The position numbers and the translations under genes are program-made. The notes under the pieces were generated by a model. It ran no database searches and was not told the origin of the DNA. It saw only the letters and a program-made list of their open reading frames with translations. Below, one piece after another: positions 12,517-42,757 of a stretch of 63,363 nt of DNA (positions are counted from its first letter, which is position 1; every line of letters starts with the position of its first letter). Source of the stretch: an uncultured Pseudomonadales bacterium (GTDB lineage: Bacteria > Patescibacteriota > Microgenomatia > UBA1400 > PJMF01); NCBI GenBank assembly GCA_964637295.1, contig CAZWWE010000005.1, positions 1-63,363 on the forward strand. Reading direction: 5' to 3'.

Positions 12517-13709
12517 GAATAAATCTTATTAATTAAAGATAAATACTGACTAGAAATCTCTTCTATTTTACGCCTAGCTTTAATTTCTTTAGCGAACAAT
12601 TTAAGACTGGTTAAGCGATCTTCATCTAGTTGTCTAATAATTCTAGAAAGATCTTCTTTGTTTAATTCAAAAATTAAATTCCCATCTTTTAGACCTGATT
12701 TTTGTAGTGCTAAATTAATGTCCTCACTATCCAAATAATATTTTAGTTTTTCAGATAAAATTGCTGGTTTTTCATAACTCCAAGCCATAGCTAATGGTCC
12801 AGAAGAAGAGAACATTGTCATATAAGGTAATATGATCAAGTCACAAGCAATAAAATAGCTAATCATTTGCTCTTCAGTTACAAAGCCAGTTACATTAATA
12901 TTTTTTTTATTGGCAAGGGAATAAATTTCGTTTACATAATCATTAATAAGCTTATTGCTCTTGTGATTAGGATTGATTCCTCCAACAACAATCAGCTCAT
13001 AGCCCAAGTCTTTAGTCCAATTTTCCAATAACCATTTAATGCCCTTATAAGGAGCAATATAACCAAATACCATGGCGTACTTTTTAATTTGATCTAAGTT
13101 TAAATTTTCTCTGGCTACTAATTTGGAGATAGGACTACCAGTAGAAGAAATTAAATGAGGAATAAAAATTGCTTTTTTACCTAGACTATTTAACAAATAC
13201 TTTTCAAAAACTACAATTTTTTTGACAACTATGTTGAGATAAAAATACCATAATTTCAAAGCTATGTTTTTAATAAAAATATAAAATTTATTTGTTTCAA
13301 CATCGCTCATGTCTTGAGGAGCCTGATGCAAAATAAAAACTACAGATTTTCCACATATGAAAAGAAAAAACAATCCTAACATTGCCAAAAGAGTGCAAAA
13401 GAGATTGCCAAACATATTAATTTCAAAAGAAAAAATTATTTGTTTTTCTCTTCTTTGCAAAAGAAAAACAAATAATCTAAAAATACTTAAAAAATTATTT
13501 CTCTTCCAAAATCTTTTAATAAATAAACCATCTTCAAAATATTTTTCTGGCACAGAAAATCTTTCAGACAAAACAATAATTTTTCCATTAAATTTAACTG
13601 CTAAACTTTGAAGAAGCAATTTGGTATAAGAAGCCACGCCCACTGTTTCAGCGGCGTGAGTCGCACCTTTTCTCGGATAGCTAGAAACAACGATTAAGCT
13701 TTGAGCCAT
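12513..13709 (-). CDS. glycosyltransferase, GT-B fold (group 1)
   Basis: 398 aa. The C-terminal half resembles the Glycos_transf_1 pattern. Overlaps the GT2 gene and the 1084-aa gene. Confidence 0.7.
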   Translation of the reverse strand: MAQSLIVVSSYPRKGATHAAETVGVASYTKLLLQSLAVKFNGKIIVLSERFSVPEKYFEDGLFIKRFWKRNNFLSIFRLFVFLLQRREKQIIFSFEINMFGNLFCTLLAMLGLFFLFICGKSVVFILHQAPQDMSDVETNKFYIFIKNIALKLWYFYLNIVVKKIVVFEKYLLNSLGKKAIFIPHLISSTGSPISKLVARENLNLDQIKKYAMVFGYIAPYKGIKWLLENWTKDLGYELIVVGGINPNHKSNKLINDYVNEIYSLANKKNINVTGFVTEEQMISYFIACDLIILPYMTMFSSSGPLAMAWSYEKPAILSEKLKYYLDSEDINLALQKSGLKDGNLIFELNKEDLSRIIRQLDEDRLTSLKLFAKEIKARRKIEEISSQYLSLINKIYS

Positions 13710-14485
13710 GAAAATAACCCTGTTTTTAGGGTATCACGGTCAGAGACGAGAGTATAGCTGCCTCGCCAGTCATAGAGGCGAATCGCCAATAGATCAAGCA
13801 GAGACTTGACCACATCTCTTAGCAGATTGACTTTGCTACGCTCATCATTGGACCAGGACACCGGAACTTCTGTCATGGTGAATTGATATTTTTTCGCCAA
13901 ATACAAAATTTCAGCATCATATCCCCAGCGGTTTATCTTCATCATCGGCGCAATGGTCTGATAGGCTTTGCGTTCAAAGAGTTTAAAACCACAAGTAAAA
14001 TCGCTAATTTTGATTCCCAAAAGCAATTGAGTTAAATAAGTAAAACCTTTGCCCATAATTTGGCGGTATAGTGGCTGTGCCAGCAAAACGGTCGACTTGC
14101 CATTCTTTCTGGTACCGACCATCACTTGACTAGCAACTACCCTGCGAGCAAAAAATTTCTGCAATTCACTGAAAGGAGTCGACATATCCACATCAGTTAG
14201 TAGCAACAAATCACCAGTGGCAGCTTGCAAGCCAACTTTGACCGCATGGCCTTTGCCGCGATTGACCTGATAACTGAGTAGTTTGACTGGCACGCGCAAT
14301 TTGCTGCGCAAAAATGGAAGTTGTTTTTTGATTAGGCGAGCTGTCTGATCGGTGCTGCCATCATCGACAAAAAGCACTTCTTGGAGCTTGAAACGCTTGG
14401 GCCACGCTTGCGCCAGAGCCTGGAAAATAATTTCCAACCGCTCTGCTTCATTGAAGACTGGTATTAGCACACTTATTTTTTGCAT
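13694..14485 (-). CDS. GT2 polyprenyl-phosphate glycosyltransferase (dolichyl-phosphate glucosyltransferase-like)
   Basis: VLIPVFNE ... VDDGSTD ... TDVD motifs of GT2 enzymes. Start set at ATG 14485 (MQKISVLIP). Confidence 0.8.
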   Translation of the reverse strand: MQKISVLIPVFNEAERLEIIFQALAQAWPKRFKLQEVLFVDDGSTDQTARLIKKQLPFLRSKLRVPVKLLSYQVNRGKGHAVKVGLQAATGDLLLLTDVDMSTPFSELQKFFARRVVASQVMVGTRKNGKSTVLLAQPLYRQIMGKGFTYLTQLLLGIKISDFTCGFKLFERKAYQTIAPMMKINRWGYDAEILYLAKKYQFTMTEVPVSWSNDERSKVNLLRDVVKSLLDLLAIRLYDWRGSYTLVSDRDTLKTGLFSWLKA

Positions 14486-14738
14486 AACGCTTACTGAAGA
14501 TACCAATTATTAATTAATATGCTCAGTAAGCGAGGCGTGAACCTATGCCAATCACCGTTTCACGGGCGACAGACAAAAGAGGGATAGAACCTCTACGCTT
14601 AGTTGTATGTGGCTTCGACCAACCTTCCAGTGAAGGAAGATGACCCAGGAGGTGTGCTCCTAGCTTGCTCGATCGGCCCGAAGGCGCGGCTCGAGGCAAA
14701 GTGGGTCTAATTGGTTTCAGCGTTTTTGACGCTAGGTA
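14486..14738 (-). ncRNA. candidate structured RNA / regulatory spacer upstream of the GT2-GT1 operon
   Basis: 253-nt GC-enriched noncoding gap on the operon strand. Minus-strand hairpins: CTCGA..GCC-UUCG-GGC..TCGAG (14668-14695), a 7-bp stem at 14645-14663, and the 10-bp stem CGCTTACTGA/TCAGTAAGCG (14488-14532) ending 2 nt before the ATG. Confidence 0.3.
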
Positions 14739-15401
14739 TTACGGGCAGGTAAAATTGCCCGCAAACACCTCGAACGCGGGGATTTCCCGCGCTCCGTTCG
14801 CCTGCTCTTTTTTAAGCAATCGGCAAACGTCCCTGACAGCGTCGGTCAAGGGATAAGCGCTGACGAGTCGCCAAGTGCCCGCCACGATGGAGTAGTCAAC
14901 TCCATCGCCCTTTGCCACAATGACCTTGTCGCCGAGGTCAAAAGTGCAGACCATATTATCCGGGCAAATCGCCTGGACACTGGCCTTCGGCACAGCCCTC
15001 CAAGTCCAGCCGCACGGTTCAGTGCTGATGCGCTGAACATCCACCCCAGTCGCCGTTTTAGCGTCGGCCGTGGTGAAATCACAAACGGACATGAGTTCGT
15101 CCGTTTGGGAGGCGGGGGTGTTAGCCTGCGCGGTTTCAGTCCCCGACATGGTCGGGGTGAAGGTTGGCACCGGGGTTTCGGTCGGCGGGACCTGCATCTC
15201 CTCCCCGTCAGGGGTGGGGGACGCAGTGGGGGACGCGGTGGGAGCCTGGGCGGTTTGCACCGCCTTTTCGACAGCCTGAGCAATGAGGGCGACTTGCTCC
15301 TCTTCGCTCAAAGTCGTGGGCGCGGGGGTGCTCATGGCGTCACAGGCGCCGAGCACCAAGCTCGCCATCATGGCGAGCGCAATCAGGGTAAAACGTTTCA
15401 T
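14739..15401 (-). CDS. lipoprotein, unknown function, high-GC (foreign-looking) gene
   Basis: Strong SD GGAAGGAGAAACC-ATG, signal peptide MKRFTLIALAMMASLVLGAC with a lipobox, P/T/A-rich linker and a Cys-rich C-terminal domain. About 60% GC against an AT-rich background. Confidence 0.75.
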   Translation of the reverse strand: MKRFTLIALAMMASLVLGACDAMSTPAPTTLSEEEQVALIAQAVEKAVQTAQAPTASPTASPTPDGEEMQVPPTETPVPTFTPTMSGTETAQANTPASQTDELMSVCDFTTADAKTATGVDVQRISTEPCGWTWRAVPKASVQAICPDNMVCTFDLGDKVIVAKGDGVDYSIVAGTWRLVSAYPLTDAVRDVCRLLKKEQANGAREIPAFEVFAGNFTCP

Positions 15402-15958
15402 GGTTTCTCCTTCCTGGGCTGAACTACCCAGGACATTGCCAACCAATGATCTCTCATTAGCAATGTCCTAGGCAATTCGCCACAAGTTGAAGAAAGATGA
15501 AATTTCACCCAACAAATACAACTATTTTGTGGAATATTTGATAAATCAAATATTGATCTCTTAGCTTGCGCTAAGTGATCTTCACGCCTTGTTAAAATGC
15601 ATCTCTTCCTGAGATTATTGTCGTCTGTTAGGCGGCTTGCGCCTAGAGATAACATCTCGATCGGAGATACCCTTCTGCTCTTTCAAGCAGAGAGGAGGTT
15701 TCTGACTCAGAGCCTACATTGCAAACTTCCTTCGTGAAAGTCTGCAGGTAAGCCCTGCTCTGGTCTGTTGCGGGATGGCGCAAACAAGCCCGAAGATCAG
15801 AAACCTTTTCTCTGCCAAAAAATTTTATTTTGGACCCTGTCTTTTTGCTTTGCAAAAAGCAGCTGGTACAAAAGATGCTGTGCATAAGACGATCTTTCAA
15901 TCATCAATTAATAGGGAATTTTGTTTTATTTTAGTCATTAGCCATTCCCTAATAACTA
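15402..15958 (-). ncRNA. candidate long structured 5' leader / large ncRNA
   Basis: About 550 nt between the predicted promoter and the lipoprotein ATG. At least 8 local hairpins. On the minus strand two have GCAA (GNRA) tetraloops (15560-15575; 15634-15643). Long-range pairing GGTTTCTGA/TCAGAAACC. Confidence 0.35.
15832..15886. repeat. 55-nt two-hairpin repeat, copy 1 (partner at 30265..30319)
   Basis: GGACCCTGTCTTTTTGC..GCAAAAAGCAGCTGGTACRAAAGATGCTGTGCATA. The two copies differ only in predicted loop positions. Confidence 0.7.
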
Positions 15959-15964
15959 GGACAA

Positions 15965-15993
15965 AGTATATCACTATAAGTCATTTTTGTCAA
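15965..15993 (-). promoter_or_regulatory. sigma70-like promoter directing leftward transcription
   Basis: Minus strand TTGACA-17 nt-TATACT. It is preceded by TATCCTATAAT, the same upstream module seen at 17115-17154. Confidence 0.5.
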
Positions 15994-16067
15994 GATTATA
16001 GGATAGTTTTTGGAACTGTTTGGAAGAATCACACTTCTTGTAACCTGAGATTGAGATAATCAATTCA

Positions 16068-16138
16068 GGGCCCGGTGTTGGTGCGCAGTTGGACTTACGA
16101 ACTCTGACTTAGGGGTTTGATTCCCCTCGGGTCCACCA
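16068..16138 (+). tRNA. tRNA-like element / degenerate tRNA (pseudo), CCA encoded
   Basis: 7-bp acceptor stem GGGCCCG/CGGGTCC with a G3:U70 pair, T arm AGGGG-TTTGATT-CCCCT, discriminator A and encoded CCA. The core is about 5 nt short, there is no canonical D arm, and the T loop has T instead of C56. Confidence 0.4.
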
Positions 16139-16150
16139 TAAAATTTGCTG

Positions 16151-16179
16151 TTGAAAATAAACACGCATTTTGTTAAAAT
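16151..16179 (+). promoter_or_regulatory. sigma70-like promoter (extended -10) for a short transcript
   Basis: TTGAAA-17 nt-TAAAAT with TGT immediately upstream of the -10. Confidence 0.45.
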
Positions 16180-16185
16180 TTAGGT

Positions 16186-16252
16186 AGTTCGTAAGTTCAC
16201 AGACACTGCACAAGTCAGGTCAGAAAATCACTCCTAACCGAGTGATTTTTTG
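16186..16252 (+). ncRNA. candidate ~67-nt small RNA
   Basis: Bounded by the promoter at 16151-16179 and an intrinsic terminator. The 5' 13 nt (AGTTCGTAAGTTC) are complementary to 16091-16103 of the adjacent tRNA-like element. Confidence 0.35.
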
Positions 16253-16256
16253 TTTT
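16224..16256 (+). terminator. rho-independent terminator
   Basis: AAAATCACTC-CTAACC-GAGTGATTTT followed by a T run. Confidence 0.7.
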
Positions 16257-16363
16257 AAATTTACATCTTTAAAGTCTCCGTCCTCCGTCTCCACTTCGAA
16301 CATTCCCTCTCGTCTTCCGCCTATGCTCCAAACATTCCTTCGTATAACTCAGTCGCAAAGCCA

Positions 16364-16390
16364 ATCAAAAAGCCCCGCCATAAGCGGGGC
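16364..16390 (-). terminator. rho-independent terminator of the surface-protein gene
   Basis: Minus strand GCCCCGC-TTATG-GCGGGGC followed by TTTTTG. Confidence 0.7.
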
Positions 16391-16410
16391 TTCAAGTTCC
16401 AATAAAAATC

Positions 16411-17106
16411 TTATTTAACAATCGCTCTAGCTTTTCTCCAAGCCAAAGAGCCAAGACCAGCGAAGGCCAAAGCTTCAATCACTAAAATGGTGCTTAAATC
16501 AAAACCAGTAGCAGGAGTGCTTTTGGTAATGATTTTGCCACTATCGGTGGCTACACAAAAACTAGCATAATCACTATCGCTGACATCGTCAGAATGAGAA
16601 TAAGCATGAGCAGCATTGGTAATACAAGTAGTACCTGCTGGTAATTCACCTGCATTTTTGAAACGAGCAACGAAATAAACAGTTACTGATTCATCTGGAT
16701 CAAGACCACCTAAACCAAATTTGATTTTGTTATCAGTGGCTTCAGCACGATAATCGCCTTTTTCACTACTGACATAGACCATATAATCGTCTAAGCGATC
16801 GAAGTCGTCATTGATGCGTACACTGTCAACTTTAATATCAGAAATATTTTTGACACGTAATTTAAATTTAACTTCTTCACCTGGAGCAAAAGTGTAATCT
16901 TTAGCATCAATATTGTCCCAATAAGCATCGGCTTTAGGATTAAAAACTTTTTTATCTAAACTGAGGTCCCCAGTTTCACAAACTTCGCCACCACCATAAA
17001 CGGTGTGGCATTCTTTGGCGCTGGCTAAATTGCTAAAAAGTAACAAAAAACCAGTGATAATTAGAAAATAAGAAATGATTTTTTTCATATTAACTTTACT
17101 TGTCAT
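16411..17106 (-). CDS. secreted surface protein with C-terminal sortase-type sorting signal
   Basis: Signal peptide. The C-terminus has TPATG, then a hydrophobic helix, then the basic tail RKARAIVK. Alternative start at 17088 (MKKII). Confidence 0.75.
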   Translation of the reverse strand: MTSKVNMKKIISYFLIITGFLLLFSNLASAKECHTVYGGGEVCETGDLSLDKKVFNPKADAYWDNIDAKDYTFAPGEEVKFKLRVKNISDIKVDSVRINDDFDRLDDYMVYVSSEKGDYRAEATDNKIKFGLGGLDPDESVTVYFVARFKNAGELPAGTTCITNAAHAYSHSDDVSDSDYASFCVATDSGKIITKSTPATGFDLSTILVIEALAFAGLGSLAWRKARAIVK

Positions 17107-30232: not shown

Positions 30233-30264
30233 TTATTGATTAAAGGACCAGGCTATTATATTTC

Positions 30265-30319
30265 GGACCCTGTCTTTTTGCAAAACAAAAAGCAGCTGGT
30301 ACGAAAGATGCTGTGCATA
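30265..30319. repeat. 55-nt two-hairpin repeat, copy 2 (partner at 15832..15886)
   Basis: 50 of 55 nt are identical to copy 1. Lies between the rarA stop and tRNA-Arg. Confidence 0.7.
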
Positions 30320-41377: not shown

Positions 41378-42757
41378 AAGTTTTTGTGAGCGTTCTTCAA
41401 TTTCCAAAGCGTGCTTTTTATTTTGACCAAAAATAATATAGGCCAGTTGACCCTGTCTCAAAAGATTGGCGGAAGCAATTACTAAACCCTCCTGACTTTT
41501 TTTATCAAATAAAACTGGTTTTAAAACCGCCAATAATTTTTCAAAAGTTGGAGTAGCTCCATTGGGTAATTTCCAAGCATTATTAGACAAAACATAAGTA
41601 TCGTCCAAAAAATCTTTGCCAATTAATTTTAGGGCCGTTTTGTAAACGTGTGAGCCGCCAGTTCTTCTGGTGTTAGATTCTGAAACGTATAGATCACCAT
41701 TTTTAGCGGCCACAAGATCAACATCATAGTAACCACGATAACCATTGGCTGCATATTTTTCACCGATAAAAAAGCCCATATCAATAATACGGGTCATCAA
41801 ACGATCGTTCATCACATCTTCATTCATTTCCACACCCTGAAAAATACCACTCTTGGTTACTCGCAGACCACAATAATACAAATAATCAATGCGCCCACTT
41901 TTATTAATTTTGAATTCAACGTTGGGAAAACCACCACCCACCGCCGAATTAACATTGATCAAGCTTTCAATCACGATTGGAAATTTATCCCAGTAAGCAT
42001 CTTTTTTGAGCAAATCATAAATCGCTCTTTCACAAGCTTTATATTCAATGGGCAATTCACCGGGGCGTAAAATCAAAACTCCAGCGCCAGAATGGCCCTT
42101 ATTGGTTTTGATCACTACTCCTTCTTCCTTAATGTATTTTTTAGCCGCAATTTTGGCAGCATCAATAATGTTGACGCAAATCAAACCATCGCTCATGATG
42201 AAATCTGGTTCTTCTGCCGCACTTTGCTGAGCCAGTTGACGAATGCCTGATTTACTACCAAAAAAGTTAACTGTCCATGCATCTTCTTCCTCTGGAGCTT
42301 CTGGCGTATAAACCGCAATGCCAGCTTCTTTAAGTTTATTGGCTAAAATCAGAAACTGCTCGCTGGTCGCATAGCTTAATAAAGTCAGTTTTTTAGCATG
42401 ATTAGCAAAATCGATTAACTTAGTAAATAATTCTTGATCACGATAAACATCTCGACAAGTCTCGCCAGAATGTACTTTGGGGGTCAGAATTTCTAGCTTG
42501 CGAATACCAAATAAGTTTTTGTAATACTCAACAAAACTTTCTTGTATTGGTTTGGGACTGATAAAAACCAAATCACTTTCCTCTGAGGTAGTAAACAAAT
42601 CGCGATCAGCTAAATTAGCATTTTCTTCAATCTCTACCGCTCGGGCATGATCATCACTAATAGCCTCTATAAAGGGCCACACATCTTCGGAAAGATTGGA
42701 AATATAGACTGTTTTCTCTGCTTTTTTCAGAGGTATAGGTTCAGTTTTTTCTGACAT
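41360..42757 (-). CDS. ATP-grasp ligase (PGM1-like peptide ligase candidate)
   Basis: 465 aa. VIKTNKGHSGAGV and the C-terminal ESN Mg-binding motif (VSESNTRRTGG). Confidence 0.6.
   Translation of the reverse strand: MSEKTEPIPLKKAEKTVYISNLSEDVWPFIEAISDDHARAVEIEENANLADRDLFTTSEESDLVFISPKPIQESFVEYYKNLFGIRKLEILTPKVHSGETCRDVYRDQELFTKLIDFANHAKKLTLLSYATSEQFLILANKLKEAGIAVYTPEAPEEEDAWTVNFFGSKSGIRQLAQQSAAEEPDFIMSDGLICVNIIDAAKIAAKKYIKEEGVVIKTNKGHSGAGVLILRPGELPIEYKACERAIYDLLKKDAYWDKFPIVIESLINVNSAVGGGFPNVEFKINKSGRIDYLYYCGLRVTKSGIFQGVEMNEDVMNDRLMTRIIDMGFFIGEKYAANGYRGYYDVDLVAAKNGDLYVSESNTRRTGGSHVYKTALKLIGKDFLDDTYVLSNNAWKLPNGATPTFEKLLAVLKPVLFDKKSQEGLVIASANLLRQGQLAYIIFGQNKKHALEIEERSQKLLSQLS

What the first reader, a model, noticed from the sequence alone, without database searches (positions are those of the whole stretch)
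15402..15958. About 550-nt hairpin-dense leader that may be a large structured ncRNA
There is no credible coding sequence between the predicted minus-strand promoter and the lipoprotein ATG, but there are many local helices. In plus coordinates these are 15560-15575, 15601-15615, 15629-15645 and 15646-15658, plus TCTGC/GCAGA, GCAGG/CCTGC and TTGCG/CGCAA stems and a long-range GGTTTCTGA/TCAGAAACC pairing about 90 nt apart. Read on the minus strand, two hairpins are capped by GCAA (GNRA) tetraloops. On the plus strand the same loops are an unremarkable TTGC, which supports a minus-strand RNA. In AT-rich genomes, GC-enriched noncoding tracts are usually structured RNAs. The size is in the range of large ornate RNAs (ROOL, GOLLD, HEARO/omega-RNA-like), but I cannot assign a family.
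Basis: partly seen in the sequence, partly recalled or inferred. Interest (0 to 1): 0.65.

Follow-up and report, generated by a model that had tools for sequence, protein, structure and literature searches.

The report
BoxA-bearing structured leader of lipoprotein operon
The hairpin-rich 557 bases are real RNA structure, but they look like the long leader of a surface-lipoprotein messenger RNA, not a free-standing giant RNA: the leader carries a ribosomal-RNA-style "boxA" antitermination signal and appears to pair with sequence just beyond the lipoprotein gene, an arrangement so far known from rRNA operons and phage lambda.

Summary
All named hairpins and the 90-nt-range helix are at the stated coordinates. 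The minus strand folds far better than shuffles (z -10.7; plus strand -7.5). A strong promoter lies at 15993-15965. The "large ornate ncRNA" reading is not supported. No Rfam family matches, even at E<=10. The 5' two-thirds is mosaic: a 61-nt copy of another intergenic region, and a helix interior that is replaced in the nearest relative. The element always lies upstream of the same lipoprotein gene, in a conserved sortase-DUF11-lipoprotein-GT2-GT1 cluster of CPR (Microgenomates-type) bacteria. Three things are conserved. First, a 12-nt single-stranded motif GCAC(U/C)UUAACAA (window 15600-15589), almost identical to rrn/lambda boxA, is present in about 18 of 20 homologous loci. Second, three to four hairpins show compensatory changes. 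Third, two short leader segments (15589-15581 and 15524-15516) are complementary to the spacer after the lipoprotein ORF (14541-14533 and 14608-14600); the first helix pairs in 72 of 72 cells and five of its nine pairs covary. My best reading is a Nus-factor (NusB/S10) boxA leader with an rRNA-like leader-trailer helix enclosing a protein-coding cistron. No RNA ends, binding or processing could be tested here. The window's own boxA has U at a key C.

The parts
15965..15993 (-). Promoter P1: TTGACA, 17-nt spacer, TG-extended TATACT. The inferred transcript start is near 15958.
   Evidence: 11 of 12 consensus matches. Nearly identical in L019. A similar GTGATATACT promoter lies about 515 nt upstream of the homologous gene in L016.
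15932..15958 (-). 5'-terminal hairpin UAGUUAUUAG-GGAAUGG-CUAAUGACUA.
   Evidence: MFE. Kept in L019 with changes on both sides (GUUAUU/AAUGAC becomes GUUGUC/GAUAAC) and a conserved loop GGAAUGGCU (read by eye from two sequences).
15826..15886 (-). Variable filler: a 61-nt, 90% identical copy of window 30259-30319 (the intergenic region upstream of tRNA-Arg, which there carries TTGCAA-17-TATAAT). It is absent from L019.
15687..15815 (-). Long-range helix P2 (15815-15797 with 15705-15687). It encloses a variable multi-hairpin insert. Its 3' strand carries an anti-SD-like ACCUCCU.
   Evidence: Both strands are conserved in L019, but the enclosed 95 nt is replaced by an unrelated ~55 nt.
15675..15690 (-). 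GNRA-capped hairpin CUGCUU-GAAA-GAGCAG. Its 5' arm overlaps the outer part of P2, so the two are alternative pairings.
   Evidence: L019 has CUGCUUU-GCAA-AAAGCAG at the same place.
15601..15658 (-). Three local hairpins: 15658-15646, 15645-15629 and 15615-15601. The last abuts boxA (a boxB-like position).
   Evidence: A hairpin directly 5' of the motif is also seen in L005, L016, L019 and L036 (by eye).
15589..15600 (-). BoxA-like element GCAUUUUAACAA (family consensus GCAC(U/C)UUAACAA).
   Evidence: for the motif in relatives and its rarity in the window. E. coli rrnH boxA TGCTCTTTAACAA read. Consensus GYTCTTTAANA from PMC5725501.
15581..15589 (-). LT1 5' strand AGGCGUGAA. It pairs with 14541-14533.
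   Evidence: 9 pairs, 72 of 72 cells paired, 5 pairs changed on both sides.
15533..15580 (-). Hairpins H1 (15580-15555, GCAA loop) and H2 (15554-15533).
   Evidence: helices 1 and 2; 8 of 13 pairs with changes on both sides across 7 sequences.
15516..15524 (-). LT2 5' strand UAGUUGUAU (conserved AGUUGU(A/G)UG, boxC-like). It pairs with 14608-14600.
   Evidence: 83% of cells paired; three compensatory pairs in L039. boxC UCUGUGUGGG from PMC10250234.
15402..15473 (-). Long hairpin X:X' (15473-15426), then X2 plus the Shine-Dalgarno CCCAGGAAGGAG (15418-15407), then the AUG at 15401. X' can pair with either X or X2.
   Evidence: helix 3: 20 pairs, 96% paired, 7 with changes on both sides. The three-part repeat pattern is seen in WIN, L005, L036, L038 and L040 (by eye).
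14739..15401 (-). Lipoprotein gene: 220 aa, signal peptide with lipobox LVLGAC, Pro/Thr-rich linker, conserved Cys-rich C-terminal domain, no Pfam family.
14486..14738 (-). Conserved structured trailer between the lipoprotein stop and the GT2 AUG (14485). It holds the LT2 3' strand (14608-14600), Tc (14601-14596 with 14532-14527), T1 (14594-14578), T2 (14574-14547), the LT1 3' strand (14541-14533) and T3 (14531-14489).
   Evidence: (35 pairs, 13 with compensatory changes).

Best explanation
The region is the long, cis-acting 5' leader of the lipoprotein-glycosyltransferase operon mRNA of a CPR (Microgenomates-type) bacterium.

Its conserved core resembles the leader of an rRNA operon or a lambda nut site. 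It comprises a hairpin, a single-stranded boxA (15600-15589) and two short strands, LT1 (15589-15581) and the boxC-like LT2 (15524-15516). These strands are complementary to the spacer that follows the lipoprotein ORF about 1 kb downstream.

Proposed mechanism, which is inferred and not shown:
1. NusB/NusE(S10) bind boxA on the nascent RNA and modify RNA polymerase. Transcription then gets through about 560 nt of untranslated, Rho-exposed leader and on through the long operon.
2. As proposed for rRNA, the bound leader is kept near the RNA exit channel. When the trailer emerges, LT1 and LT2 form and loop out the lipoprotein cistron.
3. The resulting junction (LT1, H1, H2, LT2, T1, T2) could be a processing or stabilising site. 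It could set lipoprotein expression apart from that of the downstream glycosyltransferases.
4. Competing pairings at the two ribosome-binding sites (X/X'/X2 before the lipoprotein AUG; Tc/T3 before the GT2 AUG) could couple folding to translation.

The 5' ~360 nt (15958-15601) is mostly lineage-specific hairpin filler around two or three conserved helices.
For: Shown by tools:

1. Structure beyond chance, stronger on the minus strand.

2. Fixed position upstream of one gene in a conserved cluster: sortase, DUF11, gap, lipoprotein, GT2, GT1, ~1100-aa membrane protein. This is seen in L005, L009, L013, L016, L019 and L036, and L023 is from a Candidatus Gottesmanbacteria MAG.

3. The boxA-like motif lies on the sense strand upstream of the lipoprotein gene in 15 distinct loci, at -116 to -652. 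Variants occur in L013, L021 and L026/27. Only L034/35 lack it. L009, L038 and L039 match the published consensus GYTCTTTAANA exactly. On a PWM built from the family, E. coli rrnH boxA scores 16.1. In the 63-kb window, both strands, only the leader site scores >=16.

4. Helix LT1 starts at the last base of boxA. All 72 cells pair, 5 of 9 pairs changed on both sides, and none changed on one side only. With partners slid by 1-3 columns, the structure as a whole (25 pairs) pairs in only 23-49% of cells. The variants are GGCGUGAG/CUCACGCC, GACGUGAG/CUCACGUC, GGCGUGAA/UUCACGCC and, in L039, GAGGCAUACAG/CUGUAUGCCUC. The L039 helix is 12 bp, z -5.8, and 0 of 300 shuffles reach its energy.

5. LT2, the local hairpins and the trailer hairpins all show compensatory changes.

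6. The last 197 nt of the leader are 98% identical to L019, while the rest of the shared GC-rich cassette is 88% and the lipoprotein is 45% identical in protein.

From the literature:
- boxA is necessary and sufficient for assembly of the rrn antitermination complex. In E. coli, boxC lies in the leader strand of the leader-trailer helix, 18-19 nt after boxA (PMC10250234).
- NusB-NusE recognise 8 nt of single-stranded boxA and have an adjoining dsRNA site (PMC3177189).
- Functional boxA elements occur upstream of protein genes and act at 100 nt or more from the SD. Lambda nutL lies about 200 nt upstream of N across a structured leader (PMC5725501).
Against: - No transcript ends, strand, processing or protein binding could be measured. 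The metatranscriptome-labelled runs give only a few depth-2 contigs, the runs were chosen because they hold this sequence, and one contig (15845-15995) runs over the promoter.
- The window's own boxA (GCAUUUUAACAA) has U where G2/C5/U6 numbering requires C5. It also has A at the preceding position. In E. coli, changing that C (C4A alone, or C4T together with T6C) abolishes function. Most relatives keep the C.
- The boxA of this lineage's own rRNA operons could not be read, because no rRNA is present in any held sequence.
- LT1 and LT2 are only 9 bp each and are separated by junctions. In a single sequence such a match is not significant (14 of 40 shuffles reach it in the window). The support therefore rests on 8 sequences and about 3 independent lineages.
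- Part of the LT1 covariation (the G/A with C/U column) is also explained by a 4-bp local hairpin in the trailer.
- In more distant subfamilies (L016, L020, L022-24, L028) the stretch next to boxA has no clear partner in the trailer.
- LT1 crosses the trailer helix Tc, so the two are either a pseudoknot or alternatives.
Confidence: 0.55

Rival explanations
1. A cis-acting translational switch (riboswitch, thermosensor or protein-controlled leader) that does not involve Nus factors. The conserved single-stranded motif and junction would bind a ligand or an RNA-binding protein, and the X/X'/X2 triple at the ribosome-binding site would be the expression platform.
For: Mutually exclusive pairings are conserved in architecture at the RBS: X' pairs with X or with X2 next to AAGGAG in WIN, L005, L036, L038 and L040. 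There is also GCAGAGA/UCUCUGC against the GNRA hairpin. Conserved unpaired stretches sit between covarying hairpins, as is typical of aptamers. GGA-rich loops are present.
Against: The X':X2 hairpin ends just before the SD and does not cover it. The invariant motif equals boxA nearly base for base. It is kept in distant loci where all surrounding structure differs and its distance to the AUG ranges from 116 to 652 nt, which is unlike an aptamer. No Rfam riboswitch or T-box hit at E<=10.
Confidence: 0.17
2. A long 5' UTR whose many stable hairpins only protect the mRNA (against RNases, or against Rho loading) with no specific machinery. The boxA-like motif and the leader-trailer complementarity would be conserved for other reasons or by shared ancestry.
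For: Upstream 300-nt stretches of most homologous genes fold far better than shuffles (z -4 to -10 in 15 of 18 loci) even where no sequence is shared. Filler is exchanged freely. The sequences with LT covariation are few and related.
Against: A 12-nt motif kept in about 18 of 20 loci while the flanks are saturated with change needs specific selection. LT1 has no single-sided changes in 72 cells.
Confidence: 0.15
3. A free-standing large structured ncRNA (ROOL/GOLLD/HEARO/OLE-like), that merely happens to lie upstream of the lipoprotein gene.
For: Size, hairpin density and very low folding energy. In two runs labelled cDNA, the only full-length contigs within 20 kb fall in the leader.
Against: No match to any of 4227 Rfam models. 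No terminator between the leader and the AUG. Mosaic 5' part. Never found apart from the lipoprotein gene: model R1 finds it only there in 174 kb of held sequence. The read evidence suffers from run selection and vanishes when more runs are added.
Confidence: 0.05
4. The complementary segments are DNA inverted repeats of an invertible (phase-variable) cassette that flips the lipoprotein gene. The conserved motif would be a protein-binding DNA site.
For: Inverted repeats flank a surface-lipoprotein gene that is highly variable between strains. Inverted repeats would also covary.
Against: DNA contigs from four runs cross both repeat arms colinearly, with no strand-switch joints. The repeats are only 9 bp and come as two nested pairs. 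No recombinase gene is in the conserved cluster. G-U pairs occur in LT2/Tc and throughout the hairpins on the sense strand only.
Confidence: 0.03

Closest known systems
rRNA operon leader (boxB-boxA-boxC) with the 16S leader-trailer helix, assembling the rrn antitermination complex (NusA/B/E/G, SuhB, S4)
   Same: The order is the same: promoter, hairpin, single-stranded boxA, then a leader strand. That strand includes a GU-rich boxC-like motif and pairs with sequence beyond the enclosed gene. The boxA sequence is nearly identical to E. coli TGCTCTTTAACAA. The long-range helix has covariation.
   Different: The enclosed gene encodes a protein (a lipoprotein), not rRNA. The helices are two 9-bp segments interrupted by hairpin junctions, not a 25-40-bp stalk. 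LT1 starts at the end of boxA instead of 18-19 nt later. No second boxA is seen in the spacer. The consensus has A at position 4 (GCAC against GCUC).
BoxA elements upstream of protein-coding genes (E. coli and Salmonella suhB, Citrobacter koseri CKO_00699, predicted rpsJ/ribH-nusB sites; Baniulyte et al. 2017, PMC5725501)
   Same: A boxA in the 5' UTR of an mRNA, able to act at a distance from the SD. It is proposed to work through the Nus complex and an RNA loop to the polymerase.
   Different: The published cases were sought within 50 nt of the start codon in gamma-proteobacteria, and they repress translation and promote Rho termination. Here boxA lies 116-652 nt upstream in a CPR lineage, precedes an envelope operon, and is joined to a leader-trailer pairing.
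Phage lambda nutL-N leader
   Same: BoxA plus hairpin about 200 nt upstream of the regulated gene, with a highly structured intervening leader (PMC5725501). The order boxA, hairpin(s), GU-rich boxC is as in nut sites (PMC10250234).
   Different: No N-like protein or boxB consensus is known here. Processing of the lambda leader by RNase III is recalled from memory and was not tested here. No trailer pairing is known for N.
Large ornate bacterial RNAs (ROOL, GOLLD, HEARO, OLE, raiA)
   Same: Length of several hundred nucleotides, many hairpins, GNRA loops, GC-enriched relative to an AT-rich genome.
   Different: No covariance-model match. No conserved global architecture. Tied to one downstream gene.

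Membership tests
boxA / Nus-factor (NusB-NusE) recruitment element | Sequence match to the boxA consensus (E. coli UGCUCUUUAACAA; GYTCTTTAANA) | tested here: met
   Family consensus GCAC(U/C)UUAACAA. L009, L038 and L039 match GYTCTTTAANA exactly. E. coli boxA scores 16.1 on the family PWM, and only one site in the window (both strands) scores >=16.
boxA / Nus-factor (NusB-NusE) recruitment element | Key nucleotides G2, C5, U/C6 (numbering of PMC3177189) present in the window's own copy | tested here: not met
   The window has U-G-C-A-U-U-U-U-A-A-C-A. G2 and U6 are present, but position 5 is U, not C. Changing this C in E. coli suhB boxA abolishes function (C4A alone, or C4T with T6C). L019 and 13 other loci keep C5.
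boxA / Nus-factor (NusB-NusE) recruitment element | Lies on the transcribed strand downstream of a promoter, single-stranded and next to a helix | tested here: met
   Sense strand in all loci. 358 nt downstream of the inferred start of P1. Flanked by hairpin 15615-15601 and by LT1/H1. It has no complement in the trailer.
boxA / Nus-factor (NusB-NusE) recruitment element | Same motif as in the organism's own rRNA operon leaders; nusB present in the genome | not tested
   No rRNA gene in the window or in any fetched locus. The window's genes were not screened for nusB.
boxA / Nus-factor (NusB-NusE) recruitment element | Binds NusB-NusE and confers Nus-dependent antitermination or regulation | not testable with these tools
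   Needs EMSA/ITC and reporter assays.
rRNA-type leader-trailer helix | Complementary leader and trailer strands enclosing the gene, supported by covariation | tested here: met
   LT1: 9 bp, 100% of cells paired, 5 covarying pairs. LT2: 83% paired. L039 has a 12-bp helix of different sequence at the same place. The caveats are few lineages, no single-sequence significance, and no detection in distant subfamilies.
rRNA-type leader-trailer helix | Long (25-40 bp) near-continuous duplex suitable for RNase III | tested here: not met
   Two 9-11-bp segments, separated by about 56 nt (leader side) and about 58 nt (trailer side) of local hairpins.
Large ornate RNAs (ROOL, GOLLD, HEARO, OLE, raiA) | Match to the family covariance model | tested here: not met
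   No hit at gathering score or at E<=10 with relaxed filters. None in related loci.
Riboswitch / T-box leader | Known aptamer or T-box model match | tested here: not met
   No Rfam riboswitch or T-box hit at E<=10.
Riboswitch / T-box leader | Conserved ligand-binding core with an expression platform | tested here: inconclusive
   Alternative pairings at the RBS are conserved in architecture, but they do not cover the SD.

The most novel reading that the evidence does not exclude
In a lineage of CPR bacteria, the rRNA-operon strategy has been co-opted for a protein-coding cistron. In that strategy boxA-bound Nus factors hold the leader at the polymerase until the trailer emerges, and the two strands then close a long-range helix. 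Here the surface-lipoprotein mRNA would be transcribed by an antitermination-modified polymerase and looped out (and perhaps excised or stabilised) by a boxA-adjacent leader-trailer junction. That junction would also gate translation of the downstream glycosyltransferase.
Probability: 0.35. Interest if true: 0.75.

Novelty: new variant of a known kind. Interest (0 to 1): 0.58.

Why it matters
BoxA/Nus complexes are textbook machinery for rRNA and phage lambda. Only a handful of cellular mRNA targets are known, all of them in gamma-proteobacteria.

A boxA kept upstream of one envelope-lipoprotein operon across many Microgenomates-type genomes would extend Nus-factor control to CPR bacteria and to cell-surface biogenesis. 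The covarying pairing between leader and post-ORF spacer would also offer a natural test of the "RNA looping / delivered leader strand" model of the antitermination complex, on a substrate that is not rRNA.

The result also carries a practical caution. Long GC-enriched, hairpin-dense intergenic regions in AT-rich genomes are not necessarily new ornate RNAs.

Tried and rejected
1. Rfam at gathering score, and at E<=10 on 14400-16500: only noise in the leader. ROOL/GOLLD/HEARO/OLE/raiA/T-box/tmRNA membership rejected.

2. blastn of the leader against upstream regions of homologous genes found nothing except L019. Homology showed only through motif inspection and anchored alignment.

3. RNAalifold proposed pairing of CUUU/GRC in the motif with AAGG/GYC at the SD. 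I dropped it: it is weak, with A-C mismatches in L005 and L040, and the boxA and LT1 readings explain the same columns better.

4. A conserved leader peptide. The frame LTRRE across the motif is open in the window's 85-aa ORF, but it stops after about 12 codons in L005. No Pfam hit.

5. The motif as a sigma-70 -35 box (TTAACA) or a sigma-54 site. No consistent -10 or -12 element at the proper spacing across loci (read).

6. T-box idea (UGGU in the loop of X:X', tRNA-like gene next door). The UGGU is simply part of the extended helix, and there is no model hit.

7. CsrA/Hfq-type sites. ACAAGGC resembles ACARGGA, but GG is lost in L005, L038 and L040.

8. Transcript evidence from public runs. 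Only Logan contigs at depth 2-7, no strand information, and the runs were selected for holding the query. Judged inconclusive.

9. Natural strain variation for covariation inside the window's own leader. No SNPs in 15560-15960, so uninformative.

10. RNAduplex of the whole leader against the whole spacer is meaningless at this length. An ungapped-helix statistic per single sequence is not significant.

11. DNA inversion. No strand-switch joints.
Full report
1. What is there

Region 15402-15958 lies between a strong sigma-70-type promoter on the minus strand and the ATG (15401) of a 220-aa lipoprotein gene. The promoter is TTGACA, a 17-nt spacer and a TG-extended TATACT at 15993-15965. The lipoprotein has the lipobox LVLGAC and hits no Pfam family.

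As RNA, the minus strand folds to -212 kcal/mol against -142 +/- 6.6 for dinucleotide shuffles (z -10.7). The plus strand gives z -7.5. Internal ORFs have no family match and are not conserved. One detail needs correcting: only one of the two claimed GCAA tetraloops is clean. A further GAAA-capped hairpin lies at 15690-15675.

2. Not a known RNA family, and not a unit

Rfam 15 gives nothing in the leader at gathering score or at E<=10 with relaxed filters. It gives nothing in 23 related loci either.

The 5' part is mosaic. 15826-15886 is a 90% copy of window 30259-30319, the intergenic region upstream of tRNA-Arg, which carries a TTGCAA-17-TATAAT promoter there. In the nearest relative (L019, a sludge MAG) several pieces are conserved: the promoter, the 5' hairpin (15958-15932, with changes on both sides), both strands of helix P2 (15815-15797 with 15705-15687) and the GNRA hairpin (GAAA becomes GCAA). 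But the 95 nt inside P2 are replaced by unrelated hairpins, and the duplicated 61-mer is absent.

3. Context

The lipoprotein has about ten homologues. Their contigs show a conserved cluster: sortase, DUF11/CLIPPER surface protein, a 400-1300-nt gap, lipoprotein, a ~230-250-nt spacer, GT2, GT1 and a ~1100-aa membrane protein. Scans of GTDB genomes and JGI metagenomes added 17 loci, one of them from Candidatus Gottesmanbacteria (CPR/Microgenomates). The window's organism occurs in sludge and wastewater metagenomes.

The leader's 3' half, the lipoprotein gene and GT2 (13618-15595) form a GC-rich cassette. It is 88% identical to L019, whereas the flanking AT-rich genes are 67-70% identical. Within the cassette, the last 197 nt of the leader are 98% identical, while the lipoproteins are only 45% identical in protein. 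One strain variant joins the same leader to a different lipoprotein N-terminus immediately after AAGGAG.

4. The conserved core

blastn sees no similarity between leaders of different lineages. Inspection and anchored alignment of seven leaders (window, L019, L005, L040, L038, L036, L009) reveal a shared ~200-nt 3' module. In order, it holds:
- an invariant unpaired motif, (G)CAC-UUUAACAAG(R)CGUGA(G);
- two variable hairpins, H1 and H2;
- a second motif, AGUUGU(A/G)UG;
- a long hairpin X:X';
- a copy of X (X2) abutting the SD AAGGAG.

The three local helices are paired in 91.7% of cells, against 79% in column shuffles (0 of 500 shuffles as high) and 29-38% when partners are slid. Fifteen of 33 pairs changed on both sides. 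A covariance model of the module finds it only at these loci in 174 kb of held sequence, and nowhere else in the window.

5. The motif is boxA-like

A looser pattern showed the first motif on the sense strand upstream of the lipoprotein gene in 15 distinct loci, at -116 to -652. These include distant loci in which nothing else aligns. Variants occur in L013, L021 and L026/27 (GCACUUUUACAA, GCACGUUUACAA, GCACCUUAAAAU). Only L034/35 lack it.

The consensus GCAC(U/C)UUAACAA is almost the E. coli rrn boxA. I read the latter from the rrsH leader of MG1655: TGCTCTTTAACAA, followed 12 nt later by boxC TCTGTGTGGG. L009, L038 and L039 match the published consensus GYTCTTTAANA exactly (PMC5725501). On a PWM built from the 15 sites, E. 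coli boxA scores 16.1. In the whole window, both strands, a single site reaches 16, and it is the leader site at 15602-15588.

The literature says the following:
- boxA is necessary and sufficient for assembly of the rrn antitermination complex. In Enterobacteriaceae, boxC lies in the leader strand of the 16S leader-trailer helix, 18-19 nt after boxA (PMC10250234).
- NusB-NusE read 8 nt of single-stranded boxA and have an adjoining dsRNA site. G2, C5 and U/C6 are the key bases (PMC3177189).
- Functional boxA elements exist in the 5' UTRs of protein genes and act across 100 nt or more. Lambda nutL lies about 200 nt upstream of N across a structured leader (PMC5725501).

One caveat applies to the window itself. 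Its copy, GCAUUUUAACAA (15600-15589), has U at the key C and A before it. The rrn boxA of this lineage could not be read.

6. Leader-trailer pairing

The 230-250-nt spacer after the lipoprotein stop is itself highly conserved and structured. It holds hairpins T1 and T2, helix Tc, and hairpin T3, which ends 3 nt before the GT2 AUG at 14485. Of 35 predicted pairs, 13 show compensatory changes.

The spacer contains the exact complements of both leader motifs, in nested order:
- LT1: leader AGGCGUGAA (15589-15581, starting at the last base of boxA) with UUCACGCCU (14541-14533).
- LT2: leader UAGUUGUAU (15524-15516) with AUACAACUA (14608-14600).

On an anchored alignment of eight sequences, LT1 is paired in 72 of 72 cells. 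Five of its nine pairs changed on both sides and none on one side only. LT2 is 83% paired and Tc 97%. For the whole 25-pair structure, slid controls give 23-49% paired, and 0 of 500 shuffles reach the observed covariation score. L039 has a 12-bp helix of different sequence (GAGGCAUACAGA/UCUGUAUGCCUC) at the same two places (z -5.8).

There are limits to this evidence:
- A 9-bp match is not significant in any one sequence.
- The sequences represent about three independent lineages.
- One covarying column is shared with a 4-bp local trailer hairpin.
- Distant subfamilies show no clear partner for the stretch next to boxA.
- LT1 crosses Tc.
- DNA contigs cross both arms colinearly, so a DNA inversion switch is unlikely.

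7. Interpretation

The best-supported reading is a cis-acting mRNA leader built like an rRNA-operon or nut leader: hairpin, boxA, then leader strands that pair with a trailer. Here the architecture encloses a protein-coding cistron.

Two consequences are inferred and not shown. Nus-factor loading would carry RNA polymerase through about 560 nt of untranslated leader and through the long envelope operon. It would also favour closure of the leader-trailer junction. That junction may be a processing or stabilising site, and through the Tc/T3 and X/X'/X2 alternatives it may couple folding to translation of GT2 and of the lipoprotein.

Long, very stable upstream structure is a general trait of this gene family: z is -4 to -10 in 15 of 18 loci. 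This fits a need to protect an untranslated leader.

Transcript data from public runs are inconclusive. They consist of depth-2 contigs, the runs were chosen because they hold the query, and there is no strand information.

8. Verdict

The structure is real and conserved. The element is a new variant of a known kind (a boxA/Nus-type leader) with an unusual leader-trailer feature. Confidence is about 0.85 that it is a cis-acting leader and not a free ornate RNA. It is about 0.6 that the motif is a working boxA in this family, and about 0.65 that LT1/LT2 form.

Noticed in passing
window 16068-16138 (+), with 16186-16218 and 16221-16252 (+): A 71-nt tRNA-like gene sits on the opposite strand, about 75 nt upstream of the leader promoter. 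It has a 7-bp acceptor stem GGGCCCG/CGGGUCC with G3:U70, a 7-bp 'anticodon' stem with a 9-nt loop, a T-arm and a 3' ACCA. A TG-extended -10 (TGAGATAAT) lies just upstream. ARAGORN does not call it. Rfam tmRNA matches only the two ends (20.8 bits). It is conserved in L019 with compensatory changes in the T-arm and the anticodon stem. In both genomes a downstream segment carries the complement of that genome's own anticodon-arm sequence, followed by a terminator-like hairpin.
   Followed up: partly
window 15826-15886 and 30259-30319: A 61-nt segment of the leader is a 90% copy of the intergenic region between a 407-aa gene and tRNA-Arg. There it holds a TTGCAA-17-TATAAT promoter. In the leader copy the hexamers are AAGCAA and TAAAAT, so a weak internal start near 15815 cannot be excluded.
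   Followed up: partly
window 13618-15595: A GC-rich cassette (45-67% GC against ~30-37% in the flanks) comprises the 3' leader, the lipoprotein gene, the trailer and GT2. It is 88% identical to L019, while neighbouring genes are 67-70% identical. This suggests exchange of the cassette between lineages. Lipoprotein alleles differ sharply between strains that share the same leader (the run X11 variant diverges right after AAGGAG).
   Followed up: partly
L009 5240-5800 (also L010-L012): The homologous leader is interrupted at the boxA motif by a ~560-nt insertion carrying a 100-aa ORF on the opposite strand. The 5' part of the motif (GAGCAGnUCUUUAA) is present on both sides, like a target duplication.
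   Followed up: no
window 15671-15704: This 31-34-nt piece (the GNRA hairpin plus the CCUCCU-bearing strand of P2) recurs in other contigs of five metagenome runs, with two kinds of unrelated flanking sequence. It may be a reused module in other loci or organisms.
   Followed up: no
window 14488-14601: In the trailer, CGCUUA (14532-14527) can pair either with UAAGCG at 14601-14596 (helix Tc) or, as part of hairpin T3 (14531-14489), with UAAGCG at 14493-14488, next to the GT2 start codon (14485). In L005-type sequences, T3 buries the GT2 Shine-Dalgarno. This looks like a second switch.
   Followed up: partly
L013, L016, L020-L026, L034, L039 (300 nt upstream of the lipoprotein homologues): Upstream regions of distant homologues share no sequence with the window, but most fold far better than shuffles (z down to -10 in the Gottesmanbacteria locus L023). 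They contain very long perfect hairpins and repeated CCUCC(U) anti-SD-like motifs.
   Followed up: partly
window 42022-42036 (+): The second-best boxA-like site in the window (CGCTCTTTCACAA, PWM score 15.6) lies antisense inside a 465-aa ORF. It is probably chance.
   Followed up: yes
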